Notes under the pieces: generated by a model
What the model was told of the DNA's origin: nothing
The model's input: only the letters and a program-made list of their open reading frames with translations
Databases searched by the model: none
Program-made: the position numbers and the translations under genes
Origin: Callorhinchus milii
Lineage: Eukaryota
DNA: 64,000 nucleotides
Reading direction: 5' to 3'
Assembly (NCBI RefSeq): GCF_018977255.1
Contig: NW_024704769.1
Coordinates: forward strand, 2,914,001 to 2,978,000
Part shown: in pieces, positions 651-58,880 of the stretch
Position numbering within the stretch: position 1 is the stretch's first letter
How the letters are laid out: each line of letters begins with the position of its first letter

Positions 651-1002
651 CTGAAAAGAAATAGACACAAAGGGTGGGGAAGGGAAGTTAATTTCCCAAA
701 ACACAACCTCACTAAACACGTTTCCATACTCCAAGCACACGTCACGAGACGCATTGCACCCATCCACCTACTTCCCTCCCATCCCTTAGTGCAGATCAGT
801 CTACCCCTAATCCTGGAAACCTGTGCAGAATCAATGTAATAATAAAATAAGCTCTTGCATTTGATGTGGCGCCTTTCACAATGGTAAGGACATCTCAAAG
901 CGCTTCAAAGGATCCACTGTAAAGTGTAGCGACTTTGTTTTTCACCTTCGCACACCCTCCTACCCCTCCCGATCCACTCCTCCTGACCCCAAACCCCAAC
1001 CC

Positions 1003-1218
1003 TAATAACAATCCCTCCAAAACCCAAAACAATAATAAATTGGTCATTTTCAATCCAGGACTGTTTGTGGGACATTGCTGTGCGCCATTGGCCGCCGCGT
1101 TCGCCCACAAATATACAGTCAATTCACTTTACAGTGTGTTCTGTGAAGCGCTTTGGGACGTCCTCCCGACGTGAAAAGCGCTATATCAAATGCAAGGATT
1201 ATTATTATTATTATTATT
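1003..1218 (+). mobile_element. 5'-truncated young SINE nested in an L2 3' fragment
   Basis: 3' half plus (TTA)n tail; the L2-tail sequence resumes at 1219. Confidence 0.85.
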
Positions 1219-3232
1219 AACCCCAGCTCGGGTCCAAATCTCTGACTGTCCAGCGCCTTGGGACGTCCTCCCGACGTGAAAAGCTCTGCGTAAATGTCAT
1301 TTGCTGGTGTGGTTACGGTTACGTTTCTGGAAGGGAAACAGAAAAATATTGCTTAAGTGGCCTGCAAACCTTTCTCAAATGGGGTATCTGTGTGCTTCTC
1401 AGCACCCAAAAGGTTGGAGCACCCTGGCTTAGACTGTTTGAGTTCAACAGTCCTGTCAGACACCGGGTTTTACAGCTGACTAGAGACAGCAGGCAACTGC
1501 ACAAGGAAATGTAGCCTGTAGGTAAATTCAAACACTCATGCAAATCCTGACATTTATACATGGCATTAATTCTATCTTCAGCTGTTGATCTCTCGCTGGC
1601 TGTCTCTAACCTCTCTGTCAAAGTCCTCTGCTTAGCGGGTTGCGTGTTCAAGGGCTTTGAGCTCACACTATGCTGAGACACCAATGCAATGCCGGATCGA
1701 TCAGACATTAAACTTTGGAATCAGTTCTACTTCAAGGAGATCTCGCTTACATCCACCCTCCCAGTGATGGATAGGTCGATAATCCTGTTAGATACAGCGC
1801 CTTGGGACATCCTTCTGACGTGAAAGGTGCTGCCTAAATGTAATTTGTTGCCGCTGTTGCTGCTGCTGCTGTATAAAATGCAAGGATTACTATTGTAACA
1901 CAGGGCTACGCGTCAAGCTGGATGCAAGGTTTGAGATTACCCAACAGAGCACCACACAAACAGCGTCAAAGAAACTCGCAGAGGTTGATCAGAGCCTCCG
2001 AGAGGCCACTCACTGGCTGTTTAGCTCACAGACTCACAATATGAAGCAGATCAACTGATCCCTCCACCCGCCCCCCCACACACACACACCAGCCAAACTC
2101 GACAGTCGTCCGAAAACGTGCCCATGAACCCGGTTAACCCGACAGATCATTTGAATCGAATGCAAATCAGGATTCAAGTCAGAACGGAGCCTCGTGCGGA
2201 ACTGATGCAAATAAAAGGTTGACTTGCGAAAATGCGAGGAATTGTCCACAACACACGCACTCAACACACACATATCAATAATAATAATAATAATCCTTGC
2301 ATTTGATACAGCACTTTATCACGTCTTCGAGGCACCGAATATACCGTCAAGTGGACTGACTATATTTTGTGGGCGAAACACGGCGCACAGCAGGGTCCCA
2401 CAGACCGTGCATTGAGTCACCGAATTATTATTACTTTAAAGTTTTTGTTAGCACCTACAGAAGTACGTCCATTCATTCGGTCGCTCAGCCATAAAACTTC
2501 TGGCTTCTACCTTCAGATAGTGATGTCCTCACCTCCCACGCAAACAAACACCAAATCTTGAAGCGCCATCTAACAAGCCATGACCCGTGGCTAAGAGTTT
2601 CCATGTATTTGGGTTGCTTTCCTTTCCCTTTTGCTTACCACCGCCGCCCTCCCCCCCCAAAAAAAAACCTCAATATCTAGTCCCAAGTCTTGCACCCGTT
2701 ATCCCATCCTTAAAAATAGTCACTAGCCTTTAACTTTCAAACCACTCTGTGCTCAAAAGAGGCATTATCTCAAGAGAGTGGGAGAGAGAGCCCCCACCCC
2801 TCCACTCCCTTCCTTGCAATGTACTAAACTGACCTAAAAAACTAAAATATTTGACAGCTTCTCTACGCCTGGGGAATAATTCGAACAAAGCTTTGCAATT
2901 TGGCTAATGGATCTAAGGCTCTTGCTATCTTGCATAACAACCCAACCATCCCTCCCCCCACCACCCCTCCCTCCCTCCCTCCCCACCACCAAAAAAAACC
3001 GTTGAGGTTACAAAAAGTTTTTGCAATGTTACTGTATATTTCCCCCCCTCCAAAAAAAATTAGATAGAAAGCTTTTCTTCCCCCCTCCACACACACACAC
3101 ACAATGAGCTTTGCAAACTCCCTGCATACAGGAAAGGCTGGGATGGTGTGTGTGTGTGTGGAGGGTGGGGGGGGGAGGAATTCACATTTTAGACACACCA
3201 TAATTCACGATATCTAATGATTTGTTACTCAC

Positions 3233-52205: not shown

Positions 52206-52302
52206 TCATATCAACTGCACCGCACCGCTTGCTACGAGAGGGGCAATGGTTCTGTATCGCATCAAATGCTGGGACCCTTCATCCAAATCGATAGCGTACT
52301 CT
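52206..52302 (-). CDS. GINS4: GINS complex subunit 4 (SLD5), last coding exon
   Basis: 97 nt; EYAIDLDEGSQHLMRYRTIAPLVASGAVQLI*. Confidence 0.96.
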
Positions 52303-53529
52303 CTGCGGGAGGAAAGATATTCAGATTTACAACAATGACGACGACGTTCGTACATATTGTGCCCTTCATGCGGGGTAGAGTCCCGGAGCGCTTGACAGTG
52401 GCGGAGTCTGACTCCCCGAGCCAGGGGAAGAGTGAGGGAGGGTACCATTACGATTACACTGAGGCCAGAGGTATCTTCCTGCAAATCTGCCTTGTACAGC
52501 TCTGCAAAATCACTGCCCATCCACTCACCCCACCCCCCGCCCCCACCCAGACATCATCCCACACCCGTACGTGTCAGCCCTCCCCCGCACTTTCAAAGAG
52601 CTCTGCCTCTGAGTAATGAGCTGTGTATTGATGAGTAACAAGTTCATACAGGGCAACCCTGTAATAAGGCTTGCTTATCATACGGGCATGGACTGCTTCA
52701 CTCCCTGAACACCGGCCAGCTCTCCCTGCAGCCTGTCAGCCGCAGCCACCATTTGCAAGGCTCTAGACTCGCGACTGAAAGCATTCACAGCTGACCAGGC
52801 TCCACTGAGCTCTTGCCCAGAAAGCTACCATTCCATCCAGGTAGGGGTGTGTTGGGTCGGGTTTTCCGTGGATCTGTTATGAACCGGGCTCTAAATTTAT
52901 GGATCCAAAACACCACAGGGGTCGACCTGTACTAAGTGAACAGCCCTGCCAATCAGACACTTCCCATTATTTTGCAGAATACCACAAACGCAATACATTT
53001 GTGGCGTCTCGAAGACGTGATAAGGCGCTATATCGAATTCAAGGTATATTATTATTATACAGGAAAGATTCAAGCAATTCCGCAACAGACTTGAGTCCTC
53101 ACCTGTCATGGCCAAACTTTAAGATCATTTCCCCTAATTTGAGGTTTTTAAAACTTAGATTTTGACAGCACTGGTCTAAGATGCCTCTGAAACCTTGAGC
53201 ATTAGTTTCACCGAGACCCGCAAGCTCCACCTTCGAGCTGTGACTCTAACCTCAGCTTTTCCCAGTCCAACTTCTCAACCACCTGATCCTTGCATTTGAT
53301 AAGGCAAGGTAAGTAAAGCTCCCTCCACACTGACCCAACCAGCATCGCCTCGTCAGTGACAGAATGGAATGGGTTAGATACAAAGCGCCCTCTACATGGT
53401 GAAACTGAGTATACGCTTCGTTTACAGTGCTGTCAAATCTTCAGTAGAATAATGATAATCCTTGCTTTTGATATAGCCCAAAAATATTTTGACGGTATAT
53501 CTTAGAAGTGTTCATCTCAGGTTGATAAC

Positions 53530-53640
53530 AATAATATTAATAGGTTCAGTATTAATAAAAGGTTCAGTGTTATTAATAGGTTCGGTGTCATTAATATTAA
53601 TAGGTTTTGTATTAATAATAATAGGTTCAGTATTATTATT
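53530..53640. repeat. AT-rich minisatellite (TAATAGGTTCAGTAT-like)
   Basis: About five degenerate units in a GINS4 intron. Confidence 0.8.
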
Positions 53641-53732
53641 AGTTGTACACTGTACTCTCCTTCCTTTTCCTTATATCACAGCAAAGCTAGTGAAAGATAG
53701 CACACACACGCACACACCACACTATTCCCCAC

Positions 53733-53823
53733 CTCTGCTCATCTGTTTCTGGCTCCACCAGGATGTTTTCCTGCCTTTCGTTCACCCGCAGAAAGACAAA
53801 GGAATCCAGGTTGGGTTTGGGAA
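53733..53823 (-). CDS. GINS4: GINS4 coding exon 6
   Basis: 91 nt, AG/GT; VPKPNLDSFVFLRVNERQENILVEPETDEQR. Confidence 0.96.
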
Positions 53824-54652
53824 CTGGAAAGAAAGGGAACCAGCCAGTAATGCAATACATTTAATAGGAAGAAGGGATCTTCCATTTGATACAGCGCTTA
53901 TTATCACAACATTGAAACCTCTCAAAAGTGCCTCACAGCATTTACTGTAAAGTGTAGTGACTGTGTATTGGTAGACAACCCAGCAGGCAATTTGCCCTTA
54001 GAAAACATATAGGTTTAACTTCTCATCTAAAAATACAGTGCTCTGCAGAGTGTCAGACAGGGCTTAGCATTCTTGTACTGCAGAAAACGTTTGCTCACAA
54101 GTCGCCAGGAAACTAATTTGAATGAAGTGGTAATCACAGATTAACTTTTATCTCAGATAATTGGTTTACAGAGCGTCAGAAGACAGAGCTGGAGAAAGTG
54201 CCTTTCATCAACGCTAATGCCAGTTCAGGTCAGACTCACTGACGTCACCTGGACTCGAAACTGGCCCGTGTCCAAGAGCACTCTGGTCAGACGTTGATAC
54301 GAGCTTATCTTATTTCTTTTTTAAATAGAATCCTCTAGTATATTGGTAAGAGCCCTCGTCTCACAAGTGAGAGGACCCGAGTTCGATTCCCACTTCATCC
54401 TGTGAAGTGCTTTGAAACGTCTCAACGATGTGATAGGGCACTATATCAAATACAAGAATTATTATTATTAAATAACTACAATAAAGTTTGCAAACAGGGC
54501 CACAGGAACTGTAAATGAATAAGCCGTTCAGCCTGTCCATACTTGGCTCCCATGGCAAATCTCTAATTCCATTTTCCCACATCGTTGCAAGTTTTTGTTC
54601 ATTATTATTAGATTAATATAAAAACATTTAGGTTTCTGTTCTCTCTTCTTAC

Positions 54653-54741
54653 CGGCTTTTGAGAGGTCCAGAGCTTGCAAATTGGGAGGCATGTGTTTCA
54701 GAGCGATCTTTTTCATGCAAGTCTCACAATTTGCCATGTAC
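54653..54741 (-). CDS. GINS4: GINS4 coding exon 5
   Basis: 89 nt, AG/GT; YMANCETCMKKIALKHMPPNLQALDLSKA. Confidence 0.95.
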
Positions 54742-55076
54742 CTAAAAAGCAAGCACAGACCCATTAGTTCACAGGAGTAGTGGGTAGAACGTCTTCTAGA
54801 AGTCACGACACTTAAGAGTAATAATAGTCCTTGCATTTGATATAGCGCCTTATCACGCCTCCGAGACGTCTCAAAGTGCTTCACAGAATACACTGGAAAG
54901 TGAGTTGACAGAATATTTTGTGAGCAAAACGTCCTGTAAAGGGCTTAAGACGTTTTTGACTTAATGGGGCCATTATAAAAAAGGCAAGTTCTTTTGTCAA
55001 TGTCATCTCTCACGCCTTTCTAGTCTTTCCCTTTTATTGATCTTTCCAAAGGAATTGGCCATCCAATAATACTCAC

Positions 55077-55174
55077 TCCTTAGCAAAAGCAAACTCTTCT
55101 GGAGACAAGTAAGAAGGATCTGCATCTGAGCGAGACTTCTCTTTTTCCAGGATGTGAGGGTAATATTTCTCTAT
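55077..55174 (-). CDS. GINS4: GINS4 coding exon 4
   Basis: 98 nt, AG/GT; IEKYYPHILEKEKSRSDADPSYLSPEEFAFAKE. Confidence 0.95.
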
Positions 55175-55853
55175 CTAGAGCAGGAAAAAAATACATGATT
55201 ATAATTCTCGCATAGGATACAGCGCTTTACCATGCTGTTGAAATGTCTCAAAGCGCTTCAAGGATTTTACTGTGAAATATATTGACCGTGTATTTATAGA
55301 AGTAATCATGCAATTAACAACAACAACTTGCATTTGTATAGTGCCTTTACATAGCATAACACACAACTGCTTTACAGATACAGGGATCAAAGGAGAGAAA
55401 GAAGGTGGAGAAAGAGATGGGGAAGGAAGGTAACCGTGGTTGAAGAGGTAGGTTTTTCAACAAGAACTTGCATTTCACGCAGGGTTGGGTCCCAGAGCGC
55501 TTTCAAGAGAGAGAGAGTCAGACTTTTCAAGTGTTCATTTAATCCAGAAAGTTTAACATTTTTACAACCAAAGAAAATGTGATCCAATTTGTTTTTATAT
55601 AAGAATCCTGGCATTTAATATAGCGCCTTAGAATGTCGTTGAGACGCCTCAAAGTGCTTCACAGAATACACCGTAAAGTGAATTGACTGTGTATTGTGCG
55701 GCTGAAATATGGCAGCCAATTGCACACAGCAGTGTCCCAGAAGCAATCATGGATTAAGGGGGAGTGCTTATACTCGCTGCATGAAACAAAAGTTTCTTCT
55801 GCTGATCATGACTGTAATACTCTTGGGGTATTTAAAACGCCCATAAATCGTAC

Positions 55854-55967
55854 CTTTTGCAACCGTGATCGTAAATAGCTGCTGAGGATGTAGCGTATTC
55901 TCTCAATCTCCATCCTGTGAATGGTGACTTTCAGGTCACCCTTCTTAGCTCGCTGCAGGTTACTCTC
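55854..55967 (-). CDS. GINS4: GINS4 coding exon 3
   Basis: 114 nt, AG/GT; ESNLQRAKKGDLKVTIHRMEIERIRYILSSYLRSRLQK. Confidence 0.96.
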
Positions 55968-56213
55968 CTGCGAGGGACAAAGCAACAAAAATATTCAGAT
56001 CATCACGGCGCACATGCGACACTTACTAGCGACATCTAGAGCCCAGACAGTAACATAGCATCAGCCATACATTCCACAGAAACGACAACATGCATTTATA
56101 CAGCAACTTTCACACAGGTGGCGTCACAGAGCGCTTAAAGACAGACTGTGCAGACGAGACACCCTAAATTCTTTACAGTGTGTCGCAACCATTCACGGAG
56201 CGGGCATTATTAC

Positions 56214-56300
56214 CATGTGATTCAGCTGCTCCATAACGCACTCCACAATTTCAGACTTGTTCTCCAGGAGATCGGGGGAAAACTTCTCATTCAGCCAAGC
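56214..56300 (-). CDS. GINS4: GINS4 coding exon 2
   Basis: 87 nt, AG/GT; AWLNEKFSPDLLENKSEIVECVMEQLNHM. Confidence 0.96.
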
Positions 56301-57128
56301 CTGTGAGGGAACCAAGCATGTCCAGTCCCGATCAGATGGAAGAGGTTTAGGAGCAATAGGGTACAACACTGTTGTTTTGTCCTACCTTGCTAAAATTGCT
56401 CAAATAAGTGAGTCAGAAACGTAGAAATTCACAACGCAGAAGGGAGTGGGATTTCACCAACAAATTGCAGTCACTACACTTTACAGTGAATCCTGTCAAG
56501 CGCTTTGTGATAGGCAAACACTAGTTACTGTGGCGCCTTTCACATCACATTGAGACGTGATCATAGAATTATACAGCACAGAAGGAGGCCATTCGGTCCA
56601 TCGTGTCTGTGACGACTCTTTTAAAAAGAGCTATCCAAATCAACCCCACTCCCCGCTCGTTCCGCATAGCCCTACAAACTTGTCCTCCCCAAATAATTAG
56701 CTACTTCTCTTTTAAAAGCTGCTATCGGAGTGATGCGAGAGGTGCTTCTGTAACCATCAAATGTAAGGGCGATTATTATCTTAAGTACTTAATTTCCCAA
56801 CCGCATGTTATTTGGAGAATAACAGTCTCGTCAGCCAGCGGTCGTGCAGCTGGGGGCTGAGATTCAGGACCTTAGCGTGTCCTCCCGAGGTGAAGGATGC
56901 TCTACAAATGTCATTTGTTGTTGAGGTAAGAGGGATCTCCCCCCCACCCCGGACTGAACTGGTGGGGAGTTTGCAGTCGTCCAAGTCATGAGTGACGCTA
57001 GATTCATCAACGAGACCTAGAGATGTGCTGAAACCTCCCTGTCCGCCTCCCTCCCAAGCTGAGCCTCACAGGTGGAGGGACGGTTTCGACCCTCTTGCGG
57101 GGCGGTGGCAAAGCTCTGACCTCTTTAC

Positions 57129-57224
57129 CTCCTCCAGCTTCTGGATCAGCTCGGCCGGAGTCATGACCTCTTCGTTCTGATCCTCGTGCGTGCGGTCGAA
57201 CAGCTCCGGCTCCTCTTCCGCCAT
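57129..57224 (-). CDS. GINS4: GINS4 first coding exon; the 7 exons total 672 nt = 223 aa + stop
   Basis: MAEEEPELFDRTHEDQNEEVMTPAELIQKLEE|gtaaag; matches the SLD5 N-terminal TPAELI motif. Confidence 0.93.
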
Positions 57225-57226
57225 CG

Positions 57227-57560
57227 TGGAGTCCTGTAGCTCAGTGGTTAGAGCACTCGCTTTGCAAGTGAGAGACCTGAGTTCAATTCCAGGCAGAGGG
57301 CGAAACCTTGGGCAAGTTTCCTTACTCCACACAGAGCCTAATAATAATCCCTCCAAAACCAAACACAATAATAAATTGGTCATTTTCAATCTACGACTGT
57401 TTGTGGGACATTGCTGTGCGCAATTGGCTGCCGCGTTCGCCCACAAATATACAGTCGATTCACTTTACAGTGTATTCTGTGAAGCGCTTTGGGACGTCCT
57501 CCCGACGTGAAAAGCGCTATATCAAATGCAAGGATTATTATTATTATTATTATTATTATT
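57227..57560 (+). mobile_element. Full-length young tRNA-derived SINE abutting the GINS4 start codon
   Basis: tRNA-like head (GGAGTCCTGTAGCTCAGTGGTTAGAGC, B-box GTTCAATTCC), L2-type 3' end, long (TTA)n tail, direct repeat ATCG on both sides. Confidence 0.9.
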
Positions 57561-58723
57561 ATCGGGCTGAGAAGCCAGGGGCGGAAAGTGAACTGGCGTG
57601 GCCCTCACAAGGCCGGCTCTTTGGGGACAGGCTTGAAGGTTAAACCCCCAGTGTGTGGGTGTGTGTGTGGGTGTGCGGGAGTAGGTGTGGGTGTGTGGGG
57701 GAACAGGTGTGTGTGTGTGCGCGCGAGAGAGACGGAATAGATGGTGTGTAACTCCCCGATCCTGACCCCCCGCCCCCTCCCCCCCCCACAGCTCAGGTCC
57801 AAAACAGTGGTTGTCCAGTGCCTCGGGAGGTCCTCCCGACATGAAACGCCCCCATACACANNNNNNNNNNNNNNNNNNNNNNNNNNNNNNNNNNNNNNNN
57901 NNNNNNNNNNNNNNNNNNNNNNNNNNNNNNNNNNNNNNNNNNNNNNNNNNNNNNNNNNNNNNNNNNNNNNNNNNNNNNNNNNNNNNNNNNNNNNNNNNNN
58001 NNNNNNNNNNNNNNNNNNNNNNNNNNNNNNNNNNNNNNNNNNNNNNNNNNNNNNNNNNNNNNNNNNNNNNNNNNNNNNNNNNNNNNNNNNNNNNNNNNNN
58101 NNNNNNNNNNNNNNNNNNNNNNNNNNNNNNNNNNNNNNNNNNNNNNNNNNNNNNNNNNNNNNNNNNNNNNNNNNNNNNNNNNNNNNNNNNNNNNNNNNNN
58201 NNNNNNNNNNNNNNNNNNNNNNNNNNNNNNNNNNNNNNNNNNNNNNNNNNNNNNNNNNNNNNNNNNNNNNNNNNNNNNNNNNNNNNNNNNNNNNNNNNNN
58301 NNNNNNNNNNNNNNNNNNNNNNNNNNNNNNNNNNNNNNNNNNNNNNNNNNNNNNNNNNNNNNNNNNNNNNNNNNNNNNNNNNNNNNNNNNNNNNNNNNNN
58401 NNNNNNNNNNNNNNNNNNNNNNNNNNNNNNNNNNNNNNNNNNNNNNNNNNNNNNNNNNNNNNNNNNNNNNNNNNNNNNNNNNNNNNNNNNNNNNNNNNNN
58501 NNNNNNNNNNNNNNNNNNNACACACAGACACAACACACAGACACACAGACACAGATACACACTCACACAGACACAACACAGAGACACAGCACNNNNNNNN
58601 NNNNNNNNNNNNNNNNNNNNNNNNNNNNNNNNNNNNNNNNNNNNNNNNNNNNNNNNNNNNNNNNNNNNNNNNNNNNNNNNNNNNNNNNNNNNNNNNNNNN
58701 NNNNNNNNNNNNNNNNNNNNNNN

Positions 58724-58880
58724 CGGCCGCTGCTCACTGCGTCTCTCACTCGCTGTCGGATTTTCCCGCCCAACCGCCGCTCTGCTCCGCGCACCGCACT
58801 GCGCACGCGCCCCCAGGCCCCCGGGGGGCGCCATCTTTGATCAAGGCAAACCGCCCCGTGACGTCACTGTGCCAGCAAGA
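58724..58880 (-). promoter_or_regulatory. GINS4 promoter / non-coding first exon
   Basis: CpG-rich; E2F site TTTCCCGC (58762-58769), NRF1-like TGCGCACGCGC (~58800), YY1-like CGCCATCTT (~58830), CRE TGACGTCA (58859-58866); candidate donor CGA|gtgaga at ~58749. Confidence 0.65.

What the first reader, a model, noticed from the sequence alone, without database searches (positions are those of the whole stretch)
57129..57600. Young SINE inserted exactly between the splice acceptor and ATG of GINS4, creating an in-frame 53-aa hydrophobic N-terminal extension
Seen: removing the SINE (57227-57560) and one copy of the ATCG duplication restores ...ttcactttccgcccctggcttctcag|CCCG ATG GCG, a good acceptor (exon start 57566) 4 nt before the start codon. 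The TSD includes the AT of the ATG. If that acceptor is still used, the mRNA of this replication gene carries ~335 nt of antisense SINE. That stretch contains a 6-codon uORF and an ATG at 57383 that is in frame and stop-free with GINS4, giving MTNLLLCLVLEGLLLGSVWSKETCPRFRPLPGIELRSLTCKASALTTELQDST-MAEEE. Inference: the start resembles a signal peptide. Alternatively, the SINE supplies a new acceptor (ctacag|GACTCCACG ATG, exon start 57233) that bypasses it.
Basis: partly seen in the sequence, partly recalled or inferred. Interest (0 to 1): 0.75.

Follow-up and report, generated by a model that had tools for sequence, protein, structure and literature searches.

The report
SINE inside GINS4 start-codon exon
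In the elephant shark a young jumping element sits backwards directly in front of the start codon of the DNA-replication gene GINS4 and at least its last 24-28 bases are in the spliced messenger RNA; the whole element is likely kept as a longer leader from which the normal protein is likely still the main product, while the 53-residue extension is a reading frame shared by other copies of the element and its translation is untested.

Summary
GINS4 of Callorhinchus milii lies on the minus strand. A 335-nt tRNA-Ala SINE (CmiSINE type, 97% identical to another copy) lies antisense between a strong acceptor (57566) and the ATG (57224), with a 3-4 nt duplication. It brings a 6-codon uORF and an in-frame ATG (57383, 53 aa).

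New evidence: spliced GINS4 contigs from two studies run from the coding exon into the SINE to 57249 and 57253, through the proposed new acceptor at 57233. So SINE sequence is in the mRNA and 57233 is not the main acceptor. The insertion lies on two haplotypes. The old acceptor was masked by the tool, so the real junction is unknown; it remains the best-looking acceptor of 25.

Against an adaptive extension: the same peptide appears in 11 predicted proteins of other elephant-shark genes, and all GINS4 entries found for this species are 223 aa. The uORF ends 7 nt before the extension ATG, and the SINE improves the main ATG's context.

Verdict: a real, tolerated SINE insertion into the leader of an essential gene; a known kind of event. 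The extension is unproven and likely minor.

The parts
57226..57560 (+). Young tRNA-Ala SINE (CmiSINE type), antisense to GINS4; about 60 nt shorter in the body than older copies
   Evidence: family description in PMC5499810 Results
57231..57301 (+). tRNA-Ala-like head of the SINE
   Evidence: ARAGORN; Rfam RF00005 57234-57296, E 6.9e-07
57534..57560 (+). (ATT)9 tail
57223..57226 (+). Left copy of the 3-4 nt target-site duplication, overlapping the AT of the start codon
57561..57564 (+). Right copy of the target-site duplication
57567..57594 (-). Old splice acceptor (branch-like site at -23, pyrimidine tract, CAG); exon would start at 57566. Present use untested
   Evidence: pyrimidine fraction 0.81, highest of 25 AGs in 57640-57225; six known GINS4 acceptors 0.69-0.88
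57391..57411 (-). 6-codon uORF plus stop (context -3 G, +4 T)
57225..57383 (-). 53-codon frame from ATG 57383 (context -3 A, +4 A), in frame with GINS4; translation untested
57226..57253 (-). SINE part shown to be in spliced GINS4 contigs (to 57249 in X7, to 57253 in X9)
   Evidence: table 8, records 15 and 21
57129..57224 (-). First coding exon part of GINS4, 32 codons; ATG context now -3 A, +4 G
52206..56300 (-). Six further GINS4 coding exons (acceptors 56300, 55967, 55174, 54741, 53823, 52302)
   Evidence: tblastn of P0011; joints
58724..58880 (-). CpG-rich patch with E2F, NRF1-like, YY1, CRE and GC-box motifs and two donor-like sites (58750, 58738): inferred promoter and non-coding first exon
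   Evidence: CpG o/e 1.07; motif patterns recalled; in the window E2F 4 hits, YY1 2, NRF1-like 3, one of each here; not covered by the read test

Best explanation
A young SINE sits antisense in the few untranslated bases in front of the GINS4 start codon and its last 24-28 bases are in spliced mRNA; the old acceptor at 57566 is likely still used, so the whole element likely forms a 342-nt leader, and the normal 223-aa protein is likely still the main product. Inferred mechanism: L2 machinery inserted the copy with a short duplication. Scanning ribosomes would meet the uORF (57411) first; those that translate it would pass the extension ATG, only 7 nt after the uORF stop, before regaining initiator tRNA, and would restart at the main ATG 166 nt on, whose context the SINE changed from -3 C to -3 A. 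Ribosomes that skip the uORF would partly start at 57383 and make a minor extended form, a by-product of a frame that many copies of this subfamily carry. The expected net effect is lower or retuned GINS4 output, tolerated rather than selected.
For: Shown: spliced contigs of 2 of 3 RNA-type runs (X7, X9; two studies) run from the coding exon into the SINE from their first letter; the third (X14) stops at 57193; repeat-free intron bins have zero depth in these runs. The old acceptor has the best features of 25 AGs and matches the six real acceptors; the 19 AGs inside the SINE reach at most 0.69. Insertion present with both the Q16 allele (window) and the E16 allele (X1, X7, X9). All 3 GINS4 sequences of the cluster are 223 aa; Met1 aligns in 20 of 20 vertebrates, 19 beginning there. 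Peptide in 11 other predicted proteins, 4 full-length at 49-52 of 53 identical. Distances 7 and 166 nt. Need for a minimum distance after a short uORF: PMC5972666 passages.
Against: The junction at 57566 was not seen: the tool skipped 57527-57640. Both NCBI variants are 223 aa although NCBI does annotate an upstream in-frame start for another shark GINS4 (P0017, 243 aa); this hints that its transcript models lack ATG 57383. A 438-nt internal exon is long and may favour a nearer acceptor (general knowledge, recalled). The retained leader folds strongly (-103.7 kcal/mol, z -3.83) and has two upstream ATGs, a cost for an essential gene. The extension ATG has A at -3, so its share could be larger than assumed. 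The acceptor ranking is a pyrimidine count, not a trained model.
Confidence: 0.42

Rival explanations
1. Splicing uses an acceptor inside the SINE downstream of ATG 57383 but upstream of 57253 (candidates 57350, 57337, 57324, 57320, 57306, 57276, 57259, 57255), or cuts an inner intron 57463-57256 out of the SINE. Both upstream ATGs are then absent and only the 223-aa protein is made.
For: Fully compatible with contigs ending at 57249 and 57253. Explains why both NCBI variants and two UniRef entries are 223 aa. Restores a short exon. One contig in X14 skips 57256-57463 with GT..AG ends on the minus strand (table 5). SINEs exonise mainly in antisense (PMC2394776 passages).
Against: These AGs have weak tracts (0.38-0.69 against 0.81), and the ATT tail gives no pyrimidine tract in antisense. 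The X14 joint has depth 95 against 5 for GINS4 and only 22 letters on its short side, so it likely comes from another copy.
Confidence: 0.3
2. One reading: the whole SINE is kept and the 276-aa form with a hydrophobic N-terminus is a major or functional product, possibly sent to the ER.
For: Frame open and in register; ATG context -3 A; residues 4-10 average hydropathy 3.67, small residues at 18 and 20; SINE reaches the mRNA.
Against: No such protein among 113 candidates or the best 120 of 316 hits. No basic n-region, Glu11 in the core. No Pfam family. Frame shared by the subfamily and broken in the nearest copy at 1-262, so no sign of selection. ER targeting would remove a nuclear replication subunit from its site (inference).
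Confidence: 0.12
3. The region is not spliced at 57566 at all: transcripts start in the GC-rich flank or inside the SINE, and the 'acceptor' is promoter sequence.
For: The coding exon is CpG-rich (o/e 1.03) and a GC box lies at 57579; no exon-1 junction was seen.
Against: A dense promoter-like patch with donor-like sites lies at 58724-58880; flank 57561-57860 has CpG o/e about 0.5; two NCBI variants with one protein suggest spliced leaders (inference).
Confidence: 0.08
4. One reading: the SINE supplies the working acceptor at 57233, 9 nt before the ATG.
For: CAG with a branch-like site at -15.
Against: Both spliced contigs pass 57233 and 57239 without a break or loose end; words holding 10 or more unique flank letters reach 57243. 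Contigs drop rare forms and tables were cut, so minor use is not excluded.
Confidence: 0.04
5. The insertion is an assembly error or a rare allele.
For: The right junction and an empty-site joint could not be examined (masked).
Against: The left junction is in 3 of 4 runs from three studies, on a haplotype that differs from the window's at several letters.
Confidence: 0.04

Closest known systems
CmiSINEs (SINE2-1_CM, SINE2B-1_CM) of Callorhinchus milii; PMC5499810, abstract, Methods and Results read
   Same: tRNA-Ala head, very high copy number (302,861 in the paper; 93 other BLAST pieces in this window), same species.
   Different: This copy belongs to a young subfamily lacking about 60 nt of the body and carrying an ATG where older copies have GTG. 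The paper's 104 mRNA hits were all in 3' UTRs; this one is at the 5' end. Not compared with the Repbase consensus.
SINE (Alu) exons and insertions in 5' UTRs that add uORFs or change translation; PMC7786948 and PMC2394776, passages seen
   Same: Antisense SINE sequence in the mature leader, with upstream ATGs; lengthening of an existing UTR exon by insertion is described there for first and last exons.
   Different: Here the host is an internal start-codon exon, the insertion point overlaps the ATG and rewrites its context, and the ATT tail supplies no pyrimidine tract.
Alu-GPHA, an Alu-derived N-terminal addition (passage in PMC7786948)
   Same: SINE-derived frame in front of a host ORF.
   Different: That isoform is reported as expressed and functional; here no extended protein is shown and the host is a nuclear replication factor.
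Short-uORF reinitiation as in GCN4 and ATF4; PMC5972666, passages seen
   Same: Short first uORF, a close second start that can be bypassed, a distant main start.
   Different: Here the second start is in frame with the main ORF, the layout arose in one insertion, and no regulation is shown.

Membership tests
CmiSINE (SINE2-1_CM / SINE2B-1_CM) | Alanine-tRNA-derived head | tested here: met
   ARAGORN tRNA-Ala(tgc) 57231-57301; Rfam tRNA above gathering score
CmiSINE (SINE2-1_CM / SINE2B-1_CM) | High copy number in C. milii | tested here: met
   93 other BLAST pieces in 64 kb; species from named protein hits
CmiSINE (SINE2-1_CM / SINE2B-1_CM) | CORE domain in the body | not testable with these tools
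   No consensus available; supplements of PMC5499810 could not be read; the copy lacks about 60 nt of body
CmiSINE (SINE2-1_CM / SINE2B-1_CM) | 3' tail homologous to L2-2_CM | not testable with these tools
   No L2-2_CM sequence at hand; a shared 3' part with ATT tail is seen in many window copies
L2-mobilised insertion | Short target-site duplication (about 4-5 bp) | tested here: met
   3-4 nt; reference values PMC4245944 passages; weak alone
GINS4 / SLD5 | Sld5 and SLD5_C domains, full-length orthology | tested here: met
   PF05916 and PF16922 on P0011; seven coding exons map to the window; 75-82% identity to 19 vertebrate proteins
SINE exonised in a 5' UTR | SINE sequence present in spliced mRNA | tested here: met
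   24 and 28 nt in spliced contigs of X7 and X9; full extent unknown
SINE exonised in a 5' UTR | SINE supplies the splice site | tested here: inconclusive
   57233 and 57239 are read through; sites further upstream and 57566 not resolved
SINE exonised in a 5' UTR | Upstream ATGs change translation | not testable with these tools
   Two upstream ATGs exist in the DNA; no ribosome or reporter data
Sec signal peptide (features recalled) | Basic n-region | tested here: not met
   No Lys or Arg before residue 21
Sec signal peptide (features recalled) | Uncharged hydrophobic core of 7-15 residues | tested here: inconclusive
   Residues 4-10 hydropathy 3.67; Glu at 11 splits residues 4-18
Sec signal peptide (features recalled) | Small residues at -3 and -1 of a cleavage site | tested here: met
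   Val18 and Ser20, by eye; no predictor run

The most novel reading that the evidence does not exclude
A young elephant-shark SINE subfamily carries, on its antisense strand, a portable cassette of uORF, start codon and signal-peptide-like frame. At GINS4 it is kept whole in the mRNA and yields a real N-terminally extended, ER-directed form of a core replication-helicase subunit, so that one insertion sets the dose of an essential protein; the same cassette could do this at other genes where it lies in frame before the start (predicted models P0004, P0009, P0010).
Probability: 0.1. Interest if true: 0.62.

Novelty: new member of a known kind. Interest (0 to 1): 0.3.

Why it matters
It shows that a core replication gene tolerates a SINE landing on its start codon, with SINE sequence now in the spliced leader. 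The published survey of this family listed mRNA copies only in 3' UTRs. It is a compact natural test of how a uORF, an in-frame upstream start and a better start context combine after one insertion. It also warns annotators: the antisense frame of this subfamily has entered at least 11 predicted elephant-shark proteins. If the extension were translated and ER-targeted, a SINE would be a ready-made source of signal-like peptides.

Tried and rejected
No whole genome was held, so no genome-wide count of the subfamily and no orthologous empty site from a relative; the run search listed only one organism. No listed holder is on record as RNA; RNA status is the tool's guess, backed here by exact intron joints. 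4 of 24 listed runs were laid. The stretch laid ended at 57640 and did not include the candidate exon 1; 57527-57640 was skipped as repeat, so zero depth there means nothing. Only part of tables 5, 7 and 8 was shown (208, 575 and 60,625 rows hidden), so a minor junction or empty allele could be hidden. X14 did not reach the ATG. ESM Atlas gave three unnamed clusters at 0.82-0.83, recognition below its threshold: no information. The Rfam GEBRO match (18.2 bits against 284.7) was rejected as chance. The head region alone does not fold better than shuffles in antisense (z -0.81). The splice points implied by the predicted proteins P0001-P0012 were not used as evidence of real splicing, being automatic models. 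A shorter-protein search gave one uncharacterised C. milii model, P0134, not examined further. Earlier-findings look-ups near the site, by sequence and by words returned nothing. SignalP and a trained splice model were not available. No fold or complex job was run, as none would decide the question.

Full report
Setting. The gene is GINS4 (SLD5) on the minus strand. A search with the 85 codons from 57383 to 57129 returned 12 proteins among 113 candidates, all labelled Callorhinchus milii. One, P0011, is the 223-aa GINS4; its seven coding exons map to 57224-52209 of the window, and it carries both Sld5 Pfam families. Met1 aligns in all 20 vertebrate proteins compared, 19 of which begin there. 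SLD5 is described as essential for replication (PMC4976388, start of abstract in a search listing).

The observation. The SINE lies on the plus strand from 57226/57227 to 57560, with a tRNA-Ala head and nine ATT units. ATCG flanks both sides. Four of seven other head-bearing copies begin with GTGGA, so the duplication is 3 or 4 nt. That is weak alone but fits L2-type inserts (PMC4245944, passages). The copy is 97.3% identical to one at 1-256 and 95.9% to one at 1001-1219. These young copies lack about 60 nt of body and have an ATG where older copies have GTG. Head, abundance and species match the CmiSINEs of PMC5499810 (abstract, Methods, Results read); the CORE domain and L2 tail could not be compared, and the paper's supplements, which list its mRNA hits, could not be read.

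Is there an upstream exon? A 157-nt CpG-rich patch at 58724-58880 holds one E2F, one NRF1-like, one YY1 and one CRE motif and two donor-like sites (patterns recalled). I infer that this is the promoter and a non-coding first exon. Among 25 AGs in 57640-57225, the one ending at 57567 has the highest pyrimidine fraction (0.81) and a branch-like site at -23; six real GINS4 acceptors score 0.69-0.88 and the 19 AGs in the SINE at most 0.69. This is a simple count, not a trained model.

Read evidence. The run search listed 24 runs of one organism, none on record as RNA. I laid four, one from each of four studies, on 55800-57640. X7, X9 and X14 each gave one contig with exact joints over two GINS4 introns and zero depth in repeat-free intron bins, so these are spliced transcripts. 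In X7 and X9 the contig continues from the coding exon past the ATG into the SINE, to 57249 and 57253, starting at its first letter; in X14 it stops at 57193. An end near 57253 is where 31-letter words lose their unique flank, so it marks the repeat, not the transcript end (inference). Thus 24-28 nt of SINE are in the mRNA, and the acceptors at 57233 and 57239 are read through. The DNA-like run X1 also crosses the left junction. All four runs carry the other allele at 57179 (Glu16; the window has Gln16, as P0011 does), so the insertion lies on at least two haplotypes and is probably common or fixed. Limits: the tool skipped 57527-57640, so neither the old acceptor nor an empty-site joint was tested; contigs drop rare forms; the tables were cut.

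The extension. The peptide is not particular to GINS4. Eleven other hits, from about eight genes, contain it at the start, middle or end; four match all 53 positions with 49-52 identities. These are automatic models and show only that the frame is a subfamily trait. The nearest copy in the window has it frameshifted. Given an insertion here, being in frame has a one-in-three chance. No extended GINS4 was found, and the cluster holds three 223-aa sequences, including two NCBI variants. NCBI does annotate an upstream start in Heterodontus GINS4 (P0017), which hints that its elephant-shark models lack ATG 57383; this counts against my best explanation and for an acceptor inside the SINE. The signal-peptide likeness is partial: a 7-residue hydrophobic run and small residues at 18 and 20, but no basic n-region and Glu11.

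Likely working. If 57566 is used, the leader gains a 6-codon uORF, the in-frame ATG 7 nt after its stop, and the main ATG 166 nt after it. Reinitiation after a short uORF needs some distance (PMC5972666, passages), so the uORF would shield the extension start and feed the main one. The SINE also changed position -3 of the main ATG from C to A. Ribosomes that skip the uORF could still start at 57383. The retained SINE folds stably (z -3.83), with the tail pairing to an internal inverted copy, which would slow scanning. All translation steps are inferred. I put 0.42 on this, 0.30 on splicing inside the SINE that removes both ATGs, 0.12 on a major or functional extension, 0.08 on an unspliced start, and 0.04 each on 57233 and on an artefact or rare allele.

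Comparison and novelty. SINE sequence in leaders, with uORFs or added N-termini, is well described for Alu (PMC7786948 and PMC2394776, passages). The CmiSINE survey found 104 mRNA hits, all in 3' UTRs, so a 5' case is an addition. A search for GINS4 with Callorhinchus found 0 papers; C. milii, SINE and exonization found 1, unrelated by title; two searches found 1 each, neither on this locus by title. The library lacks most subscription journals. Earlier notes of this scan showed nothing on this site; the 8 of 140 shown concern other loci. The case is a new member of a known kind: real, unusually placed, with the striking part unproven.

Noticed in passing
window 57256-57463 (as laid in run X14, table 5): One contig skips 208 nt of the SINE with GT..AG ends on the minus strand, at depth 95 against 5 for GINS4 and with 22 letters on the short side: possibly an intron formed inside an antisense copy at another locus, or a deleted copy.
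   Followed up: partly
window 57222-57227: The SINE's first bases replace position -3 of the GINS4 ATG, C becoming A, giving a strong start context.
   Followed up: partly
window 57338-57351 and 57523-57543: The ATT tail is an inverted copy of an internal stretch; in the antisense RNA they form a long helix enclosing both upstream ATGs.
   Followed up: partly
proteins P0001-P0010, P0012, P0134: The antisense SINE frame has entered many predicted C. milii proteins (transporter, NF-kB p105, cadherin, acetylcholine receptor, BRWD, glycosyltransferase), likely as annotation errors; in P0004, P0009 and P0010 it stands at the N-terminus.
   Followed up: partly
window 57364: The GINS4 copy has C where nearly all pooled family contigs have A, turning Phe7 of the family frame into Cys.
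   Followed up: no
window 57179: Two GINS4 alleles, Gln16 in the window and P0011, Glu16 in four runs and in P0013 and P0014.
   Followed up: yes
window 33343-34317 (-): A 325-codon uninterrupted frame with a CBM_21 domain, like a PP1 glycogen-targeting subunit (name recalled), between GINS4 and a GPAT4-like first exon at 26475-26729 (label recalled; no Pfam hit).
   Followed up: partly
window 1001-1219: A 5'-truncated young copy of the same subfamily with a candidate 5-7 nt duplication, followed by a short tail fragment at 1246-1287.
   Followed up: no
window 58834 (-): An ATG in strong context within the YY1 motif of the promoter patch; if inside exon 1 it would add a further upstream frame.
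   Followed up: no
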